Assembly (NCBI GenBank): GCA_002348225.1
Contig: DEAP01000041.1
Coordinates: 5,047 to 69,046, forward strand
Reading direction: 5' to 3'
DNA length: 64,000 nt
From: Dehalococcoidia bacterium UBA2979
Lineage (GTDB): Bacteria > Chloroflexota > Dehalococcoidia > UBA2979
A program made the position numbers and the translations under genes. This document shows positions 9,119 to 30,801 of this stretch, piece after piece; position 1 is the stretch's first letter, and each line of letters starts with the position of its first letter. Under the pieces are notes generated by a model that was not told the DNA's origin, did no database searches, and saw nothing but the letters and a program-made list of their open reading frames with translations.

Positions 9119-9667
9119 TTACGAGTTCGGTTCAACTGCCCCAGCAATAATTAGTGTCAAAGTAGCCACATCTATAGGTCCGGCATGTCTCTCCAGTACC
9201 GTGGCTCCATCTGCATCAATGGTACAAATTCGAGGGAATCCTAAGATTCCTAACTCTCGCGCCAACTCTTGATCTTCTTTGTTGGCCACGTCCAGAATGA
9301 CATAATTTATTTGTGATTGAGTGTCGTATCGTAACCCGTCAACTACGGATCGCACCTGTTTGCAGCTCATTCAGCCGACAGCCGAATTGAATACCAGAGT
9401 TGGTAGACCATTTTGTGGAATGAAAGCACCGGTGCGGTCAATTTGCCTGTCGGACATTTTGAAATTTTGTTGAACTAGTACTGCTTTGCCGTCAGATGGG
9501 TAATTACCTGTAGCTATCGCTGACTGCTGATCTGGGGAGCTGCCAGATTGACTGCTTGATCCTTTTTCAATCTTGGAGTTTTCAGCGGCGCATGAGATCA
9601 AAAGGGCTATCATTATCGAAGCTGTCACCGAAGGCAATAATCTTTTCGGTAGTGCAAAGCTGACCAT
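9119..9667 (-). CDS. Thioredoxin-fold lipoprotein, candidate selenoprotein (Sec encoded by in-frame TGA 9371..9373; redox motif U-M-S-C).
   Basis: ORFs 9371..9667 and 9119..9370 are in the same frame, separated only by a TGA. The N-terminal part has a signal peptide and lipobox (LISC). The merged protein follows a complete thioredoxin fold: beta strand PTLVFNSAVG, then U-MSC, then helix KQVRSVVDGL, strand YVILDV, helix ELARELGI, cis-Pro FPRICTIDADG, and strand VLERHAG. The TGA falls exactly at the nucleophilic Cys of CXXC. A downstream hairpin (9330..9353, minus-strand mRNA GCGAUCCGU-AGUUG-ACGGGUUACG) starts 17 nt after the UGA and has G/U in the apical loop, consistent with a bacterial SECIS. 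Confidence 0.55.
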
Positions 9668-11083: not shown

Positions 11084-11659
11084 CTAATCACGTTGAAACG
11101 GTGCAATTTCGCCATCGGGAACCGGTATTTCGAACACATTTAGGACGAATGATATAGCTGAGTAGTATCCGATCAATGTGGTGATTTCCATCACGCCTTG
11201 TTCGCCGAGTAGTGCTATCACAGATTCGTACGCATCATCCGAAGCTCGATGTTCATGAATCACCTGTGAACAAAACACATATACCGTCTGTTCGTCTCCC
11301 GTTAAAACAGGCTCATCGCCATTTCTAATACTTTCAACGACATGCGGCTCGACTCCTGCCTCAATAGCCATCCTGGCGTGAGCCCAGAATTCGTATTGCG
11401 CTTCCCAATGCGCTCCAATTGTAATAATCGCAAGTTCCAACAGGTTTCTTGGAACTGAAGTCCCAAACCTGAGACGAGCTCCAAGTTCTTGGAGTGCGAT
11501 ACCAATGTTTGGGGCGTGAAGCATGGCATTAAATGGGCCGCCCAATGAACCTGTATCTGATTTCATATTGGCTCCTCGAGGTCCGGATGTGAGCGCATCA
11601 TATGTCAGTTTCTGTTCAGGGCTTAATTCACCAGGTATCAACAACTTGAGTCGTGGCAT
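11084..11659 (-). CDS. Carboxymuconolactone decarboxylase (CMD/AhpD-like) family protein.
   Basis: It has an AhpD-like all-helical fold signature (MPRLKLLIPGELSPEQKLTYDAL...). The start is set at the internal ATG 11659, preceded by an AAAGGAAAAG RBS, rather than 11680. Confidence 0.7.
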   Translation of the reverse strand: MPRLKLLIPGELSPEQKLTYDALTSGPRGANMKSDTGSLGGPFNAMLHAPNIGIALQELGARLRFGTSVPRNLLELAIITIGAHWEAQYEFWAHARMAIEAGVEPHVVESIRNGDEPVLTGDEQTVYVFCSQVIHEHRASDDAYESVIALLGEQGVMEITTLIGYYSAISFVLNVFEIPVPDGEIAPFQRD

Positions 11660-11769
11660 ATTTCTTTTCCTTTCAACCATATTCGTGCGGCCTACGCGCG
11701 GTTAGGATATCTGGAGACGATCAGTTTGAATAGAGTGGCTGACTAATAAAAGCCGGAGTAGGCAGCTAG

Positions 11770-13894: not shown

Positions 13895-14431
13895 TCAGTC
13901 GACGAGCGCATCAATCAGCTGTTCAATGACTTCGTCGGCCTTGTTATGCATTTCATTATCGGTTTGATCCTGCATTGGATGCCGAATAAACACCCGATGA
14001 ACGTCCGGCATTCCTAGTGATTTTGATTGAGCTGCGGCTGCATCCACAAATTCATTAGTTGCTACAAACACGGCGGGTATGCCGTTGCTTTCAAACCAAA
14101 CCGTATCGTGCACACTGCACGTTGTGCAAGATCCTCAGTCAGCGACTGCCTCAATTACAAAATTACACTCGTTCATGATTTTACGCCGTAAATCATATGG
14201 TGCTGGTTTTGCGAACGTTGGTTTCTTATATCTCTTGACATGAACCGACGGCATTTGTTCATGTATTTGTTGCTCCAATCGATCAAGAAATTTGTCACCG
14301 CGTGGTTTTGATATGTCGAGCAGGCCAATAGTGCCCGTTATGTGCTCGGACCGCTTAGCCTGAGACCTACTAATAGGTTCTCTTTCATCAGTAGGGTCGA
14401 GAATTATTGTCGGGTTAACTTCCAATGTCAT
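13895..14431 (-). CDS. UGSC-motif (seleno)protein; in-frame TGA at 14135..14137 read as Sec.
   Basis: ORFs 14135..14515 and 13895..14113 share a frame. Reading through the TGA gives ...EAVAD-U-GSCTTCSVHDTVWFESNG..., i.e. a U-G-S-C motif like that of the described UGSC (seleno)protein family. The start is set at ATG 14431, which has a strong GGAGGA RBS and lies after the upstream gene's stop. A hairpin 13 nt after the UGA (14107..14121, CGUGCA-GUG-UGCACG, GU in the loop) is bSECIS-like. Confidence 0.6.
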
Positions 14432-14460
14432 GTATTCCTCCGGTGTTTGCAAACTTAAGA

Positions 14461-16050
14461 TTAAAGTTGTATTTTCTTGCTGGTGGGCATCGAACCACCT
14501 GTACCGCTGGCCCATCCATCAAAGACAGACGAAAATTTTCCGGCTTTAGAGCCTGCCACAACGATATGGATATTTTCAGTTGAGCGGAATTTTGGTATGA
14601 GTGAATCAAGCTTGGGATCAGAGGGGCCATCGAATATGTTGGGGTCCAGTCCAGCTCCTATTTCGTCATTCCTAAGGAGTTCCCGGGCAGGTCGACTTGA
14701 GATATCTTGAATCCGATCCCGAATTTCTGATTTCGACCAGTTATTAGTGGAAATTGTCTCGACATGTTCTGGGCAAAGTACCAGGATTGTGTCCCCGTAG
14801 TTGTGTGAGTTGGGGTGATGAATTGCTTCCATTTTTACGCCAATTGATCCAACCAGTGATTTGGCATCTCTCGAAGTTTGGTCGATAGCATGTCCGAGTC
14901 CAGTCATGGCAAACGCAGTGACTACTGACTCATTTTTATCAAATCCCCGTTCAACATGTAGAGGAGCCCACGGGCTGATTTCCTCCCACTCCGCAAAACA
15001 TGTTGTATATCGGAGAGGACTACCCAGTGTCGACCGTTCGGTCTCTCCAGGCCGCTGTCCTCCAACATTTCTCAGGACAAGCCGGAGAGCTCGACCGATT
15101 GCGGCATTTGCCCGATTTCCTTGGCCGAGAGCATTGAGGCCCATGTTCATGCCTATTTCATGTCGGATTGGCCCGTTAACTATGAGAACCGGCGTTGCTC
15201 CCATAGTGGTCGCGCCCACACCGTGGGCATTAAATTCTTCAGTGCAAACTGCTTCTACGGCCGCTATAACCACCGGCAAGTATTCTGGTTTGCAACCTGC
15301 CATTACCGAATTGATCGCTATTTTTTCAACGGTTACTGGTGCAAGATTTGGTGGTACCACCGCAACAGTTTCTTGAGGATCTCGCTTAGTGCCTTCTAGT
15401 ATTCTGATTACTCGTTCCGGCGTAGGTGGGATCACCGGTAATCCATCAGTCAGGCCTTGTTCATATAGGAACTCATGAACGTCGTCATGTACTCCTATCT
15501 CCACTCGTCGGGCCCGTATAGGTGATCCTTCAGATTCAGCTTGTAATCGTTCAAAAATGCCCGGCTCCAAAGACTTGGAACCGCATCCAGGTCGTGATTC
15601 GGGATACGAATTCCAATCTACTTCAGGAGGTGTTTGTTCGCTGATGGCCGACATCTTCACATACAGCTCGCGCCAGTCATCTCGTCCGAAGCCGACAAAG
15701 TCAGTCACTGGAGTCCCATCAGGTGAAGCAAGAATGAGAGTGGGAACGGTTTCAATATCGTATGCGAACGAGGTGGTGAGACTGGAGTCATCTAGCAGTG
15801 GCATCATAAGGCCGTATTCTTCTGCTAATACGAGGTCATCTTCTCCATTTTGGGCTAGTGCCACTACATCAATATCTTTTCCGAACACTTCATAGGCCTT
15901 TTGTAGAAGAGGCATAGCGATTCTGGTTGTCGGACAGTCCTCCTTGACGAAACAAAGAAGTGTCGGGCGGCCTGACGGGAAGGAATAGGCGTTCTGAGTT
16001 CGGGTCGCGCCCGCTGTTGGTAGGGAAAAGTTTGGTAAATTATTCATCAC
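14461..16050 (-). CDS. Hypothetical 529-aa protein: N-terminal thioredoxin/peroxiredoxin-like domain fused to a large uncharacterised domain.
   Basis: The N-terminal approximately 140 aa carry a Trx-like pattern (TLLCFVKEDCPTTR...VPTLILASPDG). The C-terminal approximately 380 aa (GLTDGLPVIPPTPERV..., GATTMGATPVLIVNGPIRHE...) match no family I can name. It sits immediately upstream of the UGSC gene in the same operon. Confidence 0.5.
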   Translation of the reverse strand: MMNNLPNFSLPTAGATRTQNAYSFPSGRPTLLCFVKEDCPTTRIAMPLLQKAYEVFGKDIDVVALAQNGEDDLVLAEEYGLMMPLLDDSSLTTSFAYDIETVPTLILASPDGTPVTDFVGFGRDDWRELYVKMSAISEQTPPEVDWNSYPESRPGCGSKSLEPGIFERLQAESEGSPIRARRVEIGVHDDVHEFLYEQGLTDGLPVIPPTPERVIRILEGTKRDPQETVAVVPPNLAPVTVEKIAINSVMAGCKPEYLPVVIAAVEAVCTEEFNAHGVGATTMGATPVLIVNGPIRHEIGMNMGLNALGQGNRANAAIGRALRLVLRNVGGQRPGETERSTLGSPLRYTTCFAEWEEISPWAPLHVERGFDKNESVVTAFAMTGLGHAIDQTSRDAKSLVGSIGVKMEAIHHPNSHNYGDTILVLCPEHVETISTNNWSKSEIRDRIQDISSRPARELLRNDEIGAGLDPNIFDGPSDPKLDSLIPKFRSTENIHIVVAGSKAGKFSSVFDGWASGTGGSMPTSKKIQL

Positions 16051-16086: not shown

Positions 16087-16461
16087 CTATTTTGGTATCC
16101 AGTCTGTTGTGAATACCAATGCTAGGGTCAGTATAGACAAAATAAGTATGAAAGATAGTATGCGCCCTCGATGTCGTTTTCGACTCTTGTGCATTAATTT
16201 CTTTGCAGCACGTACTTGACCCGTTTTCAGCGCAAACCATTCACCTCGAATTCTCGTTTCCTTGAAGGCATTATGTAGTTTGCGCTCAATCATGAGTGCA
16301 TCGTCTGTTTGAATAGACTTCACGATTTCTAATTTAGTTGGCGAGCCAGTTTGCAGATTTCTCATCCGATCCTGCATGTTTGAGGTTTGCCCTATTTTGT
16401 AGAGTTGTTCGGAGCCAATTTTTGGCCCACGGATAAGATACACGAAGCCGTCTTTTTTCAT
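16087..16461 (-). CDS. GIY-YIG nuclease-superfamily domain protein with a C-terminal transmembrane anchor.
   Basis: It has GFVYLIRG...LYKIGQT spacing typical of GIY-YIG (T5orf172-like). It also has a basic region and a hydrophobic C-terminal helix (ILSFILILSILTLALVF). Confidence 0.55.
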   Translation of the reverse strand: MKKDGFVYLIRGPKIGSEQLYKIGQTSNMQDRMRNLQTGSPTKLEIVKSIQTDDALMIERKLHNAFKETRIRGEWFALKTGQVRAAKKLMHKSRKRHRGRILSFILILSILTLALVFTTDWIPK

Positions 16462-30491: not shown

Positions 30492-30607
30492 GGGGTTTTC
30501 TCACTTTCTGAGCGAGATAGTCAACTTTCCTTAAGATTATTTCATGTTTGATGATTATACATATGACTCATCTTTGACAGGGTGCTATTATTCATCACGA
30601 TTAACTT

Positions 30608-30695
30608 TGTCCCGCTGGGGGGGCCGTACGGCTGAGATCCTTGGAATATAGGACTACCCCGAGAACCTGAACTCGGTAATTCGAGCGGAGGAAAG
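30608..30695 (+). promoter_or_regulatory. TPP (THI-box) riboswitch.
   Basis: The sequence CCGCUGGGGGGGCC...GGCUGAGA...ACCCCGAGAACCUGAACUCGGUAAUUCGAGCGGAGGAA matches the conserved TPP aptamer cores (GGGG.GCC, GCUGAGA, ACCC...GAACCUGA.C.GGUAAU.C.GCG.AGG). P1 is CCGCU/AGCGG. It lies 5' of the ykoF-thiXYZ-like operon. Confidence 0.85.
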
Positions 30696-30801
30696 CGAAG
30701 GAAGAGTTGTAGAACTTGTTTCTACTCTGCTCAGATCTCCACGTAATCTCCGCAATTACCAATAGTCTCAGGCTAATGAAGGCAGTTGTTAGGAGAAATT
30801 T

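What the first reader, a model, noticed from the sequence alone, without database searches (positions are those of the whole stretch)
13895..14431. UGSC-motif selenoprotein hidden by a TGA split, co-operonic with a CoA-transferase
ORFs 14135..14515 and 13895..14113 share a frame. Read-through of the TGA at 14135..14137 yields ...NFVIEAVAD-U-GSC-TTCSVHDTVWFESNGIPAVFVATNEF..., i.e. the U-G-S-C signature of the described UGSC (seleno)protein family. A 6-bp hairpin with a GUG loop (14107..14121) begins 13 nt after the UGA, which is bSECIS-like. The best start (ATG 14431, GGAGGA RBS) lies 27 nt after the stop of the upstream 529-aa gene. A GTG-start CaiB-type CoA-transferase follows 20 nt downstream, implying one transcript: Trx-like fusion protein, then selenoprotein, then CoA-transferase.
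Basis: partly seen in the sequence, partly recalled or inferred. Interest (0 to 1): 0.75.

Follow-up and report, generated by a model that had tools for sequence, protein, structure and literature searches.

The report
Split UGSC selenoprotein gene with partner
The two short ORFs are one gene for a known but functionally uncharacterised selenocysteine protein (UGSC family); it is an ordinary new member, but it sits beside a conserved partner gene that gives a lead to its function.

Summary
On the minus strand, ATG 14431 to TGA 13895 is one 178-codon frame interrupted only by TGA 14137..14135. The merged protein passes the curated cutoffs of both UGSC models (NCBIfam NF041046 170 bits vs 125; Pfam PF24696). 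In 80 of 80 related genomic loci from several phyla the same codon is TGA, the frame continues, and GSCTTCS[VLM]H follows. Natural homologues have Cys there. Its codons show zero synonymous variation in 81 sequences, while the other degenerate codons vary. A second UxxC selenoprotein gene at 9665..9119 shows that this lineage uses selenocysteine.

The family has been known since 2007-2008, so this is a new member of a known kind. The 529-aa upstream gene (a TlpA/ResA-like domain plus an orphan ~380-aa domain) precedes UGSC in 71 of 80 loci. The CaiB-type CoA-transferase follows directly only in the two closest relatives. The predicted UGSC fold is flavodoxin/Rossmann-like, not thioredoxin-like. 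Weak recurrent hits to GrdB-type selenoprotein B models, together with the shared UxxCxxC motif, are an unconfirmed lead. No Sec machinery genes were found in the window.

The parts
13895..14431 (-). UGSC-family selenoprotein gene (178 aa plus stop), ATG 14431 to TGA 13897..13895
   Evidence: Translation. NCBIfam NF041046 170.1 bits (cutoff 125) and Pfam PF24696 166.7 bits. The N-termini of the closest homologues (P0001, 96% identical) match the ATG 14431 start.
14135..14137 (-). In-frame UGA read as selenocysteine (residue 99)
   Evidence: TGA at the homologous codon in 80/80 loci, with the frame continuing, and also in L081, L083 and L086. Cys at this position in the uninterrupted homologues P0003, P0266, P0363, P0371, P0374, P0378, P0390, P0399 and P0410.
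14107..14121 (-). bSECIS-type hairpin CGUGCA-GUG-UGCACG (apical loop 14115..14113)
   Evidence: It is the only helix in the RNAalifold consensus of 81 sequences and is 100% paired. Synonymous entropy is zero at codons +5 to +8. The loop is 3 nt and starts G-U, the stem is 6 bp, the loop lies 19 nt from the UGA, and the energy is -7.4 kcal/mol in context or -10.1 for the local fold. Criteria are from PMC13188914.
14436..14441 (-). Shine-Dalgarno-like GGAGGA, 4 nt upstream of ATG 14431
   Evidence: Read directly from the sequence.
14461..16050 (-). Conserved partner gene, 529 aa: N-terminal TlpA/ResA-like thioredoxin-fold domain (about residues 1-140, motif C39-P-T-T here) plus an orphan domain of about 380 aa
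12636..13874 (-). Family III (CaiB-type) CoA-transferase gene, GTG start 20 nt after the UGSC stop; adjacent here but not a conserved neighbour
   Evidence: Pfam CoA_transf_3 425 bits; below every NCBIfam equivalog cutoff. It lies directly downstream on the same strand only in L001 and L002.

Best explanation
The region encodes one 178-residue member of the UGSC (seleno)protein family. The UGA at 14137..14135 is decoded as selenocysteine. SHOWN: family membership; conservation of the in-frame TGA with a conserved C-terminal half; Cys in uninterrupted homologues; and a short hairpin 13 nt downstream whose nucleotides are frozen at synonymous sites and which fits the bacterial SECIS model. INFERRED from established knowledge of bacterial Sec insertion: SelB carrying Sec-tRNA(Sec) binds this hairpin on the translating mRNA and delivers Sec at the UGA.

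The Sec opens a U-G-S-C-T-T-C (UxxCxxC) motif. In the model of a Cys homologue this motif lies at the end of strand beta3 and the start of a helix in a five-unit beta/alpha (flavodoxin/Rossmann-like) domain. That position is typical of a redox-active or nucleophilic centre.

SHOWN: the gene is tightly linked (median gap about 13 nt) to an upstream gene that fuses a TlpA/ResA-like thiol-disulfide oxidoreductase domain to an orphan ~380-aa domain with invariant cysteines. INFERRED: the two proteins work together as a cytoplasmic thiol/selenol redox module. The UGSC selenol would be the reactive centre, forming a selenenylsulfide with the neighbouring Cys or with the partner. The partner's thioredoxin-fold domain would recycle it, and the orphan domain would supply substrate or catalytic specificity. 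The downstream CaiB-type CoA-transferase is probably co-transcribed here, but it is a lineage-specific neighbour and not part of the module.
For: Family: (scores above curated cutoffs). Sec codon: (TGA in 80/80 loci spanning Chloroflexota, Binatota-type, Alpha-, Gamma- and 'Delta'-proteobacteria and Myxococcota; locus list). Sec/Cys pairing. SECIS: zero synonymous entropy at ACG UGC AGU GUG against 0.2-2.2 bits at other degenerate codons; Ser +7 is always AGU, while Ser +2 uses all six Ser codons; RNAalifold consensus is this hairpin only; 100% paired; criteria met; a divergent subfamily keeps a helix in the same register with different bases and a U-G-U-A-C loop. TGA also acts as a true stop in the same gene (13897..13895), so decoding depends on context. 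Sec use in this lineage: a second UxxC gene whose TGA is conserved in two relatives and which has its own SECIS-like hairpin. Partner linkage. Fold. Partner domains.
Against: No selA, selB, selC or selD gene was found in the window: no tRNA was detected, and 20 of the larger ORFs scanned with Pfam gave none of them. Sec machinery is therefore not demonstrated for this genome. The hairpin shows no compensatory covariation, because five of its six pairs never vary. Its stand-alone energy (-6.3 isolated, -7.4 in context) is at the edge of the -7.5 criterion, and the regional fold is no better than shuffles. The structural model is of a 50%-identical Cys homologue, not the window protein. Nothing tested here shows physical interaction or redox chemistry between UGSC and the partner. 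In one of three reciprocal look-ups, and in 9 of 80 loci, the pair is not adjacent. In the window the partner's CxxC is CxxT, so a classical dithiol mechanism for that domain cannot apply here.
Confidence: 0.85

Rival explanations
1. The TGA is a genuine stop. The locus then encodes two separate polypeptides, a 98-aa N-half and a 72-aa C-half starting at GTG 14113, or it is a pseudogene or sequencing error.
For: Gene callers split nearly all homologues this way: about 98-aa and about 72-aa proteins dominate the hit lists. The MFE of the downstream region is unremarkable.
Against: The two halves are always in the same frame with no spacing in 80/80 loci. The seven residues after the TGA (GSCTTCS) are invariant, although they lie upstream of any possible start of a C-half ORF, and the called C-half starts vary (MSCSVHD, VHD, MHD). 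Uninterrupted Cys forms exist. An error or pseudogene cannot recur identically across phyla.
Confidence: 0.03
2. The UGA is read as a standard amino acid (Trp, Gly or Cys) through a reassigned genetic code or near-cognate read-through, not as selenocysteine.
For: One database entry (P0002) shows W at this position. Sec machinery was not found in the window.
Against: P0002's W is a TGA in the DNA, so it is a translation-table artefact. The same gene ends with TGA as a true stop, and its C-terminus matches those of homologues. In-frame TGAs with conserved flanks were found only at UxxC positions, here and at 9373..9371. The position aligns with Cys, the standard Sec counterpart. A SECIS-type hairpin under RNA-level constraint follows it.
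Confidence: 0.03
3. UGSC works with the downstream CaiB-type CoA-transferase in CoA-thioester metabolism, as the operon layout in this window suggests.
For: The CaiB gene is on the same strand with a 20-nt gap and no intergenic terminator. The arrangement is kept in the two nearest relatives, L001 and L002.
Against: No CaiB-family gene was detected at all in 68 of the 80 loci. Where one occurs near UGSC outside L001/L002, it is on the opposite strand and 27-36% identical. Only 7 cluster members lie near UGSC, and 4 of those are on the opposite strand.
Confidence: 0.07
4. UGSC is a miniature GrdB/PrdB-type selenoprotein B domain. With its partner it would carry out a reductive C-N (or C-X) bond cleavage through a Sec nucleophile, rather than generic thiol-disulfide exchange.
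For: The same UxxCxxC motif is described for GrdB (PMC13188914). Eight of 11 UGSC-family proteins have their best non-self NCBIfam hits to GrdB/GrdF/GrdH/'various_sel_PB' models, always in the same register (UGSC ~75-175 against profile ~325-420 of 431), with E from 4.6e-5 to 0.03. The fold is not thioredoxin-like.
Against: All those scores (11-22.5 bits) are far below the family cutoffs (65-800). Pfam GRDB did not hit. My hhalign of a 90-sequence UGSC profile against four GOS GrdB-type reads gave P >= 0.078, no better than reversed sequences or unrelated selenoproteins, although the one 40-column alignment placed U on U. The partner shows no similarity to the pyruvoyl subunits GrdE/PrdA. The roughly 330 N-terminal residues of GrdB are absent.
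Confidence: 0.25

Closest known systems
UGSC family (seleno)protein (NCBIfam NF041046; Pfam PF24696), first reported by Zhang and Gladyshev (PMC1976440, 2007; PMC2398784, 2008)
   Same: It gives a full-length HMM match above the curated cutoffs. It has the U-G-S-C motif, Sec forms far outnumber Cys forms, and it comes from an aquatic or environmental lineage. Its function is unknown, as for the whole family.
   Different: Nothing essential differs; it is an ordinary member. Three points found here are absent from the papers I could search. The predicted fold is flavodoxin/Rossmann-like rather than the 'likely Trx-like fold' stated in 2008. The hairpin is nearly invariant across phyla. The gene is tightly linked to a 529-aa TlpA-like/orphan-domain gene. 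The 2008 paper mentions a 'UGSC/Unknown_1 fusion', but that figure panel is held only as an image, so I could not tell whether Unknown_1 is this orphan domain.
Glycine/sarcosine/betaine/D-proline reductase selenoprotein B (GrdB, GrdF, GrdH, PrdB; TIGR01917, TIGR01918, PF07355)
   Same: Both have a UxxCxxC motif with Sec first. Sub-threshold profile hits recur and align the UGSC Sec region with the Sec region of GrdB. Both are encoded next to a larger partner subunit.
   Different: UGSC is 178 aa against about 430 (GrdB) or about 240 (PrdB). All scores are far below the cutoffs. The partner is not a pyruvoyl proenzyme of the GrdE/PrdA type. My hhalign test was not significant. These organisms are not amino-acid-fermenting clostridia.
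Bacterial SECIS consensus model (bSECISearch; summarised in PMC13188914, Fig. 2)
   Same: The apical loop is 3 nt and starts G-U, the upper stem is 6 bp, and the loop lies 19 nt from the UGA. All are within the stated ranges.
   Different: It is a minimal element. The hairpin alone is -6.3 kcal/mol, or -7.4 in context, which is borderline against the -7.5 threshold. The local fold including a weak lower stem reaches -10.1. The sequence is almost invariant across phyla, whereas bSECIS elements of different families are described as dissimilar.
TlpA/ResA/DsbE/CcmG-type thiol-disulfide oxidoreductases (comparison for the partner's N-terminal domain)
   Different: I saw no obvious signal peptide or membrane anchor at the N-terminus on reading the sequence (no predictor was run), so it is probably cytoplasmic. 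It is fused to an orphan ~380-aa domain. In this window the motif is C-P-T-T, with one Cys only.

Membership tests
UGSC family (seleno)protein (NF041046 / PF24696) | Whole-protein HMM score at or above the curated cutoff | tested here: met
   NF041046 170.1 bits against a cutoff of 125, E 2.9e-50. PF24696 166.7 bits against 25, covering profile positions 2-171 of 172 (Sec replaced by Cys for scoring).
UGSC family (seleno)protein (NF041046 / PF24696) | U/C-G-S-C motif at the conserved position, with Cys in non-Sec homologues | tested here: met
   The window has D-U-G-S-C-T-T-C. 80/80 loci have U-G-S-C. Nine uninterrupted homologues have C-G-[SG]-[CN] there (eight with Cys at the fourth position, P0363 with Asn), and one further homologue (P0265) has Ser in place of Sec.
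UGSC family (seleno)protein (NF041046 / PF24696) | In-frame UGA with conserved coding sequence on both sides | tested here: met
   80/80 loci, plus L081, L083 and L086.
Bacterial selenoprotein gene (general) | bSECIS: 3-9 nt apical loop, 4-16 bp upper stem, G in the first two loop positions, 16-37 nt from UGA to loop, MFE <= -7.5 kcal/mol | tested here: met
   Loop GUG, 6-bp stem, 19-nt spacing. Energy is -7.4 kcal/mol for the hairpin in context (borderline) and -10.1 for the local fold. RNA-level constraint is shown by zero synonymous variation. There is no covariation, because the stem does not vary.
Bacterial selenoprotein gene (general) | Sec machinery (selA, selB, selC tRNA-Sec, selD) in the same genome | not testable with these tools
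   The window has no tRNA and no Rfam hit other than a TPP riboswitch. None of the 20 larger ORFs scanned with Pfam is a sel gene. The rest of the genome is not available. Indirect support comes from a second conserved UxxC selenoprotein gene at 9665..9119.
Bacterial selenoprotein gene (general) | Selenium actually incorporated at the UGA | not testable with these tools
   This needs 75Se labelling or mass spectrometry.
Thioredoxin-fold oxidoreductase (the fold suggested for UGSC in PMC2398784) | beta-alpha-beta-alpha-beta-beta-alpha thioredoxin topology, with structural matches to Trx-fold proteins | tested here: not met
GrdB/PrdB reductase selenoprotein B (TIGR01917, TIGR01918, NF040794, PF07355) | HMM score at or above the family cutoff | tested here: not met
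   Best scores are 11-22.5 bits against cutoffs of 65-800, and there is no Pfam GRDB hit.
GrdB/PrdB reductase selenoprotein B (TIGR01917, TIGR01918, NF040794, PF07355) | UxxCxxC motif with Sec first | tested here: met
   The window has U-G-S-C-T-T-C. The motif is described for GrdB in PMC13188914. The third Cys is replaced by Trp in more distant UGSC homologues.
GrdB/PrdB reductase selenoprotein B (TIGR01917, TIGR01918, NF040794, PF07355) | Remote homology of the Sec-bearing C-terminal domain | tested here: inconclusive
   Same-register sub-threshold hits recur in 8 of 11 proteins, with E down to 4.6e-5. hhalign against four GOS GrdB-type reads was no better than the controls.
GrdB/PrdB reductase selenoprotein B (TIGR01917, TIGR01918, NF040794, PF07355) | Adjacent pyruvoyl-proenzyme subunit (GrdE/PrdA type) | tested here: not met
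   The partner's C-domain and its stand-alone paralogues have no Pfam or NCBIfam hit to such families, even at E <= 10.
TlpA/ResA-like thiol-disulfide oxidoreductase (partner, N-terminal domain) | Thioredoxin fold with a CxxC active site | tested here: inconclusive
Family III CoA-transferase (downstream gene) | Pfam CoA_transf_3 above cutoff; assignment to a specific equivalog | tested here: inconclusive
   PF02515 scores 425 bits against 23.3, so the superfamily criterion is met. All NCBIfam equivalogs are below cutoff (best 338 against 750), so substrate specificity is unknown.

The most novel reading that the evidence does not exclude
UGSC and the 529-aa gene may form a widespread, undescribed two-protein selenoenzyme. 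More than 590 species-level genomes encode a UGSC relative, and the pair is adjacent in 71 of the 80 loci examined, which span several phyla. In this reading UGSC is a stripped-down GrdB/PrdB-type Sec domain (UxxCxxC on a flavodoxin-like fold). The partner contributes an orphan catalytic or substrate-binding domain of about 380 aa, plus a built-in TlpA-like domain that recycles the selenenylsulfide. The chemistry would then be substrate reduction, not generic antioxidant thiol exchange.
Probability: 0.25. Interest if true: 0.6.

Novelty: new member of a known kind. Interest (0 to 1): 0.4.

Why it matters
As stated, the finding rediscovers a catalogued selenoprotein family. Its practical value is annotation: ORF callers split the gene into two 'hypothetical proteins', here and in most public records. 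The same holds for the second selenoprotein at 9665..9119.

The wider interest is that UGSC is reported as one of the most abundant selenoprotein families in aquatic metagenomes (PMC2398784, PMC9402790), yet its function is still unknown after nearly two decades. Three results from this work make that question more testable. There is an almost obligatory partner gene with an orphan domain and invariant cysteines. The predicted fold contradicts the assumed thioredoxin fold. And there is a possible, unconfirmed kinship with the Sec domain of glycine/proline reductases. The near-invariant 15-nt SECIS also gives a simple DNA signature for finding the family.

Tried and rejected
(1) MFE folding of the 81 nt around the UGA gave z = 0.07, which is uninformative.

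(2) The covariation test on the hairpin has no power, because the stem is invariant: 0 compensatory pairs, and the shuffles equal the observed value.

(3) Alignment A4 (N- and C-fragments together) was split into two registers by MAFFT and was discarded. A7 and A8 were rebuilt with fewer fragments.

(6) PDB sequence and profile searches found nothing for UGSC or for the C-domain.

(7) P0263, which looked like a 651-aa fusion, is a frame-scrambled ORF call in a high-GC genome spanning partner and UGSC. It is not a real fusion.

(8) The exhaustive HMM search lists only its top 150 hits, all UGSC fragments or Cys forms, so it could not test the GrdB link.

(9) hhalign against GOS GrdB-type reads was not significant relative to the controls.

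(10) GOS Figure S1A (UGSC/Unknown_1 fusion) is held only as an image, so the identity of Unknown_1 is unresolved.

(11) DNA for the Cys-form gene P0003 was unavailable. The control I wanted, relaxed synonymous sites where no SECIS is needed, could not be run.

(12) The promoter and terminator scan gave nothing above background.

(13) The CaiB functional link was considered and rejected for lack of conserved synteny.

Full report
OBSERVATION. ATG 14431 is preceded by GGAGGA at 14441..14436. It opens a frame that runs to TGA 13897..13895 and is interrupted once, by TGA 14137..14135. The two listed ORFs (14135..14515 and 13895..14113) share this frame. The merged product has 178 residues and reads ...NFVIEAVAD-U-GSCTTCSVHD... 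The 15-nt palindrome CGUGCA-GUG-UGCACG occupies 14121..14107 and starts 13 nt after the UGA. The only numerical slip concerns the gap to the upstream gene's stop (TAA 14463..14461), which is 29 nt, not 27. The 20-nt gap to the GTG start of the CoA-transferase is correct.

FAMILY. With Cys substituted for the TGA, the protein scores 170.1 bits on NCBIfam NF041046 'UGSC family (seleno)protein' (cutoff 125, E 2.9e-50). It scores 166.7 bits on Pfam PF24696 over essentially the whole model. The family was reported by Zhang and Gladyshev in 2007-2008 as a selenoprotein of unknown function. It is described as one of the most abundant selenoprotein families in ocean-survey data, with 255 Sec forms and 21 Cys forms in GOS. 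A 2026 review still lists it as uncharacterised.

IS THE UGA A SEC CODON? A word-indexed search returned mostly proteins of about 98 aa that end at ...EA[LV]AD, that is, at the TGA. It also returned separate C-terminal ORFs of about 72-79 aa. A scan of one genome per GTDB species found at least 591 loci, and I kept the best 80. These come from Dehalococcoidia and other Chloroflexota, Binataceae, Alpha- and Gammaproteobacteria, 'delta proteobacteria' and Myxococcota.

In all 80 loci the homologous codon is TGA and the frame continues without spacing. The next residues are G-S-C-T-T-C-S-[V/L/M]-H, and the C-terminal half is 53-80% identical to the window's. Uninterrupted homologues carry Cys at the position (C-G-[SG]-C in P0003, P0266, P0371, P0378, P0390, P0399, P0410 and others), and one has Ser. 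The single entry with 'W' (P0002) is a TGA in the DNA, translated with the wrong table. The gene's own terminator is also TGA, so decoding depends on context. Together these results exclude a sequencing error, a pseudogene, a split two-polypeptide protein and a reassigned code.

SECIS. The regional MFE is unremarkable. The comparative evidence, however, is strong. Across 81 unique sequences I measured codon-usage entropy among sequences sharing the majority amino acid. Every degenerate codon from -25 to +40 varies (0.2-2.2 bits), except codons +5 to +8. There Thr is always ACG, Cys always UGC, Ser always AGU, and Val (when present) always GUG. By contrast, the Ser at +2 uses six codons and the Cys at +3 uses both.

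These frozen nucleotides form the 5' arm and the loop of the hairpin. RNAalifold on the 81 sequences returns this helix and nothing else. The formal pair count gives 100% pairing. Five pairs never vary, one alternates between G-C and G-U, and there are no compensatory changes, so covariation cannot be used. The divergent P0002 subfamily (GSCTSCCTHD) has GUCGUGC-UGUAC-GCAUGAC at the same place. That is a 7-bp helix in the same register with different bases and a loop containing G-U. It is a single example of structure kept through sequence change.

Measured against the published model (3-9 nt loop, 4-16 bp stem, G in loop position 1 or 2 usually followed by G or U, 16-37 nt from the UGA, MFE <= -7.5; PMC13188914), the window element has a 3-nt GUG loop, a 6-bp stem and 19-nt spacing. 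Its energy is -7.4 kcal/mol in context, and -10.1 when a weak lower stem is included. I call this a minimal bSECIS that is borderline on energy alone.

SEC MACHINERY AND A SECOND SELENOPROTEIN. The window has no tRNA genes. Its only Rfam hit is a TPP riboswitch. None of the 20 larger ORFs scanned with Pfam is selA, selB or selD. This cannot be settled from 64 kb.

A scan for TGAs flanked by long open frames did find a second candidate in an otherwise ORF-free gap. On the minus strand, ATG 9665 to TAA 9121..9119 has a TGA at 9373..9371. It encodes a lipoprotein-type signal (...ALLISC) and a thioredoxin-like domain in which U-M-S-C replaces CxxC. Orthologues in L001 and L002 are 50-52% identical and keep the TGA at the same codon (NSAVG*LSCK, NSAVG*PTCK). 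A 7-bp hairpin with an AGUUG loop follows 26 nt downstream, and the orthologues have GUGAA and GUG loops. This independently shows that the lineage uses Sec.

By tblastn, both domains lie upstream of UGSC on the same strand in 71 of 80 loci. The estimated gap is <= 60 nt in 58 loci, with a median of about 13 nt. Starting instead from three partner proteins in other lineages, two have a split UGSC immediately downstream and one does not. The Cys-form P0003 also follows a 452-aa gene with no Pfam hit, overlapping it by 4 nt. In ten Dehalococcoidia loci, stand-alone copies of the orphan domain (about 370 aa) lie directly downstream of UGSC. Invariant partner residues include C39 (position 42 is Cys in 38 of 45, Thr in 5 and Ser in 2; the window has C-P-T-T), C156 in a P-G-C-G-S motif, and C253. 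C269 is nearly invariant.

A CaiB-type gene, by contrast, follows UGSC directly only in L001 and L002. Elsewhere such genes are absent, or distant and on the opposite strand. The three window genes may well share a transcript, given the short gaps and the lack of an intergenic terminator. Conservation, however, ties UGSC to the 529-aa gene and not to the CoA-transferase.

STRUCTURE AND MECHANISM. I therefore modelled the natural Cys homologue P0003 (50% identical) with a 31-sequence alignment that includes the window's two halves. The result has mean pLDDT 85.5 and pTM 0.80. After a low-confidence but sequence-conserved N-terminal peptide (LDPTDER.P..R), the domain consists of five alternating beta/alpha units. 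The Cys/Sec lies at the end of beta3 and the start of helix 3.

The inferred mechanism is as follows. The selenol at the helix N-terminus is the reactive centre and forms a selenenylsulfide within U-x-x-C. The partner's thioredoxin-fold domain recycles it, or, where that domain has only one Cys as in this window, forms a mixed bond with it. The orphan domain provides specificity. These steps are inference, and none was tested.

A POSSIBLE LINK TO GrdB/PrdB. The window protein weakly hit the sarcosine reductase GrdF model (E 0.009). I then scanned ten diverse full-length homologues at permissive thresholds. Seven of them have their best non-self hits to GrdB, GrdF, GrdH or 'various_sel_PB' models. 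The register is always the same (UGSC ~75-175 against profile ~325-420 of 431), and E ranges from 4.6e-5 to 0.03. GrdB is described as carrying a UxxCxxC motif, and PrdB as its homologue. The window has U-G-S-C-T-T-C.

Several results argue against the link. All scores are far below the family cutoffs, and Pfam GRDB did not hit. My hhalign of a 90-sequence UGSC profile against four GOS GrdB-type reads gave P >= 0.078, no better than reversed sequences or unrelated selenoproteins, although the one 40-column alignment did place U on U. The partner shows nothing resembling a pyruvoyl subunit. I rate this link as an interesting but unconfirmed lead.

VERDICT. The gene is a new member of a known selenoprotein family, mis-split by ORF calling, and it has a minimal, highly conserved bSECIS. 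It most likely belongs to a Dehalococcoidia (Chloroflexota) genome: the closest loci, L001 and L002, are 74-77% identical. The family identification is not novel. The tight partnership with the TlpA-like/orphan-domain gene, the non-thioredoxin predicted fold and the possible GrdB-like kinship are leads on a long-standing unknown function. I found none of them in the papers I could search.

Noticed in passing
window 9119..9665 (-), TGA at 9371..9373: A second, unannotated selenoprotein gene. It encodes a lipoprotein-type signal peptide plus a thioredoxin-like domain with U-M-S-C in place of CxxC. The TGA is conserved in orthologues L001:5639-6145 and L002:10827-11333, and a SECIS-like 7-bp hairpin with an AGUUG loop lies 26 nt downstream. 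The region has no ORF of 120 aa or more, so standard calling would miss it.
   Followed up: partly
window 14461..16050 (-), residues 39-42: The partner's redox motif is C-P-T-T in this window, whereas 38 of 45 relatives have C-P-T-C. The N-terminal domain therefore has a single active-site Cys, which would favour a mixed bond with another protein, possibly the Sec of UGSC.
   Followed up: partly
L034, L036, L046, L047, L050, L051, L058, L065, L066, L075 (just downstream of UGSC, e.g. L065:6533-7645): Stand-alone paralogues of the partner's orphan C-domain (about 367-407 aa, sometimes two in tandem) lie directly downstream of UGSC in a Dehalococcoidia subclade. Two of the three scanned gave weak hits to a glycerate 2-kinase model (E 0.005-0.017), which may be noise.
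   Followed up: partly
L081/L082 3403..4593 (+): In another lineage, two adjacent DUF3179 ORFs (150 and 238 aa) lie 400 nt upstream of the partner-UGSC pair. DUF3179 is a listed selenoprotein family, so this looks like another Sec gene split by the gene caller.
   Followed up: no
L086:187-708 (protein P0002): A public JGI gene call translates the UGSC Sec codon as Trp. The DNA has TGA, so this is a translation-table artefact that hides a selenoprotein.
   Followed up: yes
window 16087..16461 (-): A small T5orf172/MUG113 (GIY-YIG-related) domain ORF ends 36 nt upstream of the 529-aa gene. This domain type is often associated with mobile or phage DNA.
   Followed up: no
window 30607..30710 (+): A TPP riboswitch (Rfam RF00059, 63.9 bits, full length).
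   Followed up: no
window 11084..11680 (-): A 198-aa ORF between the EamA transporter gene and the M20 peptidase gene has no Pfam or NCBIfam match even at E <= 0.1.
   Followed up: no
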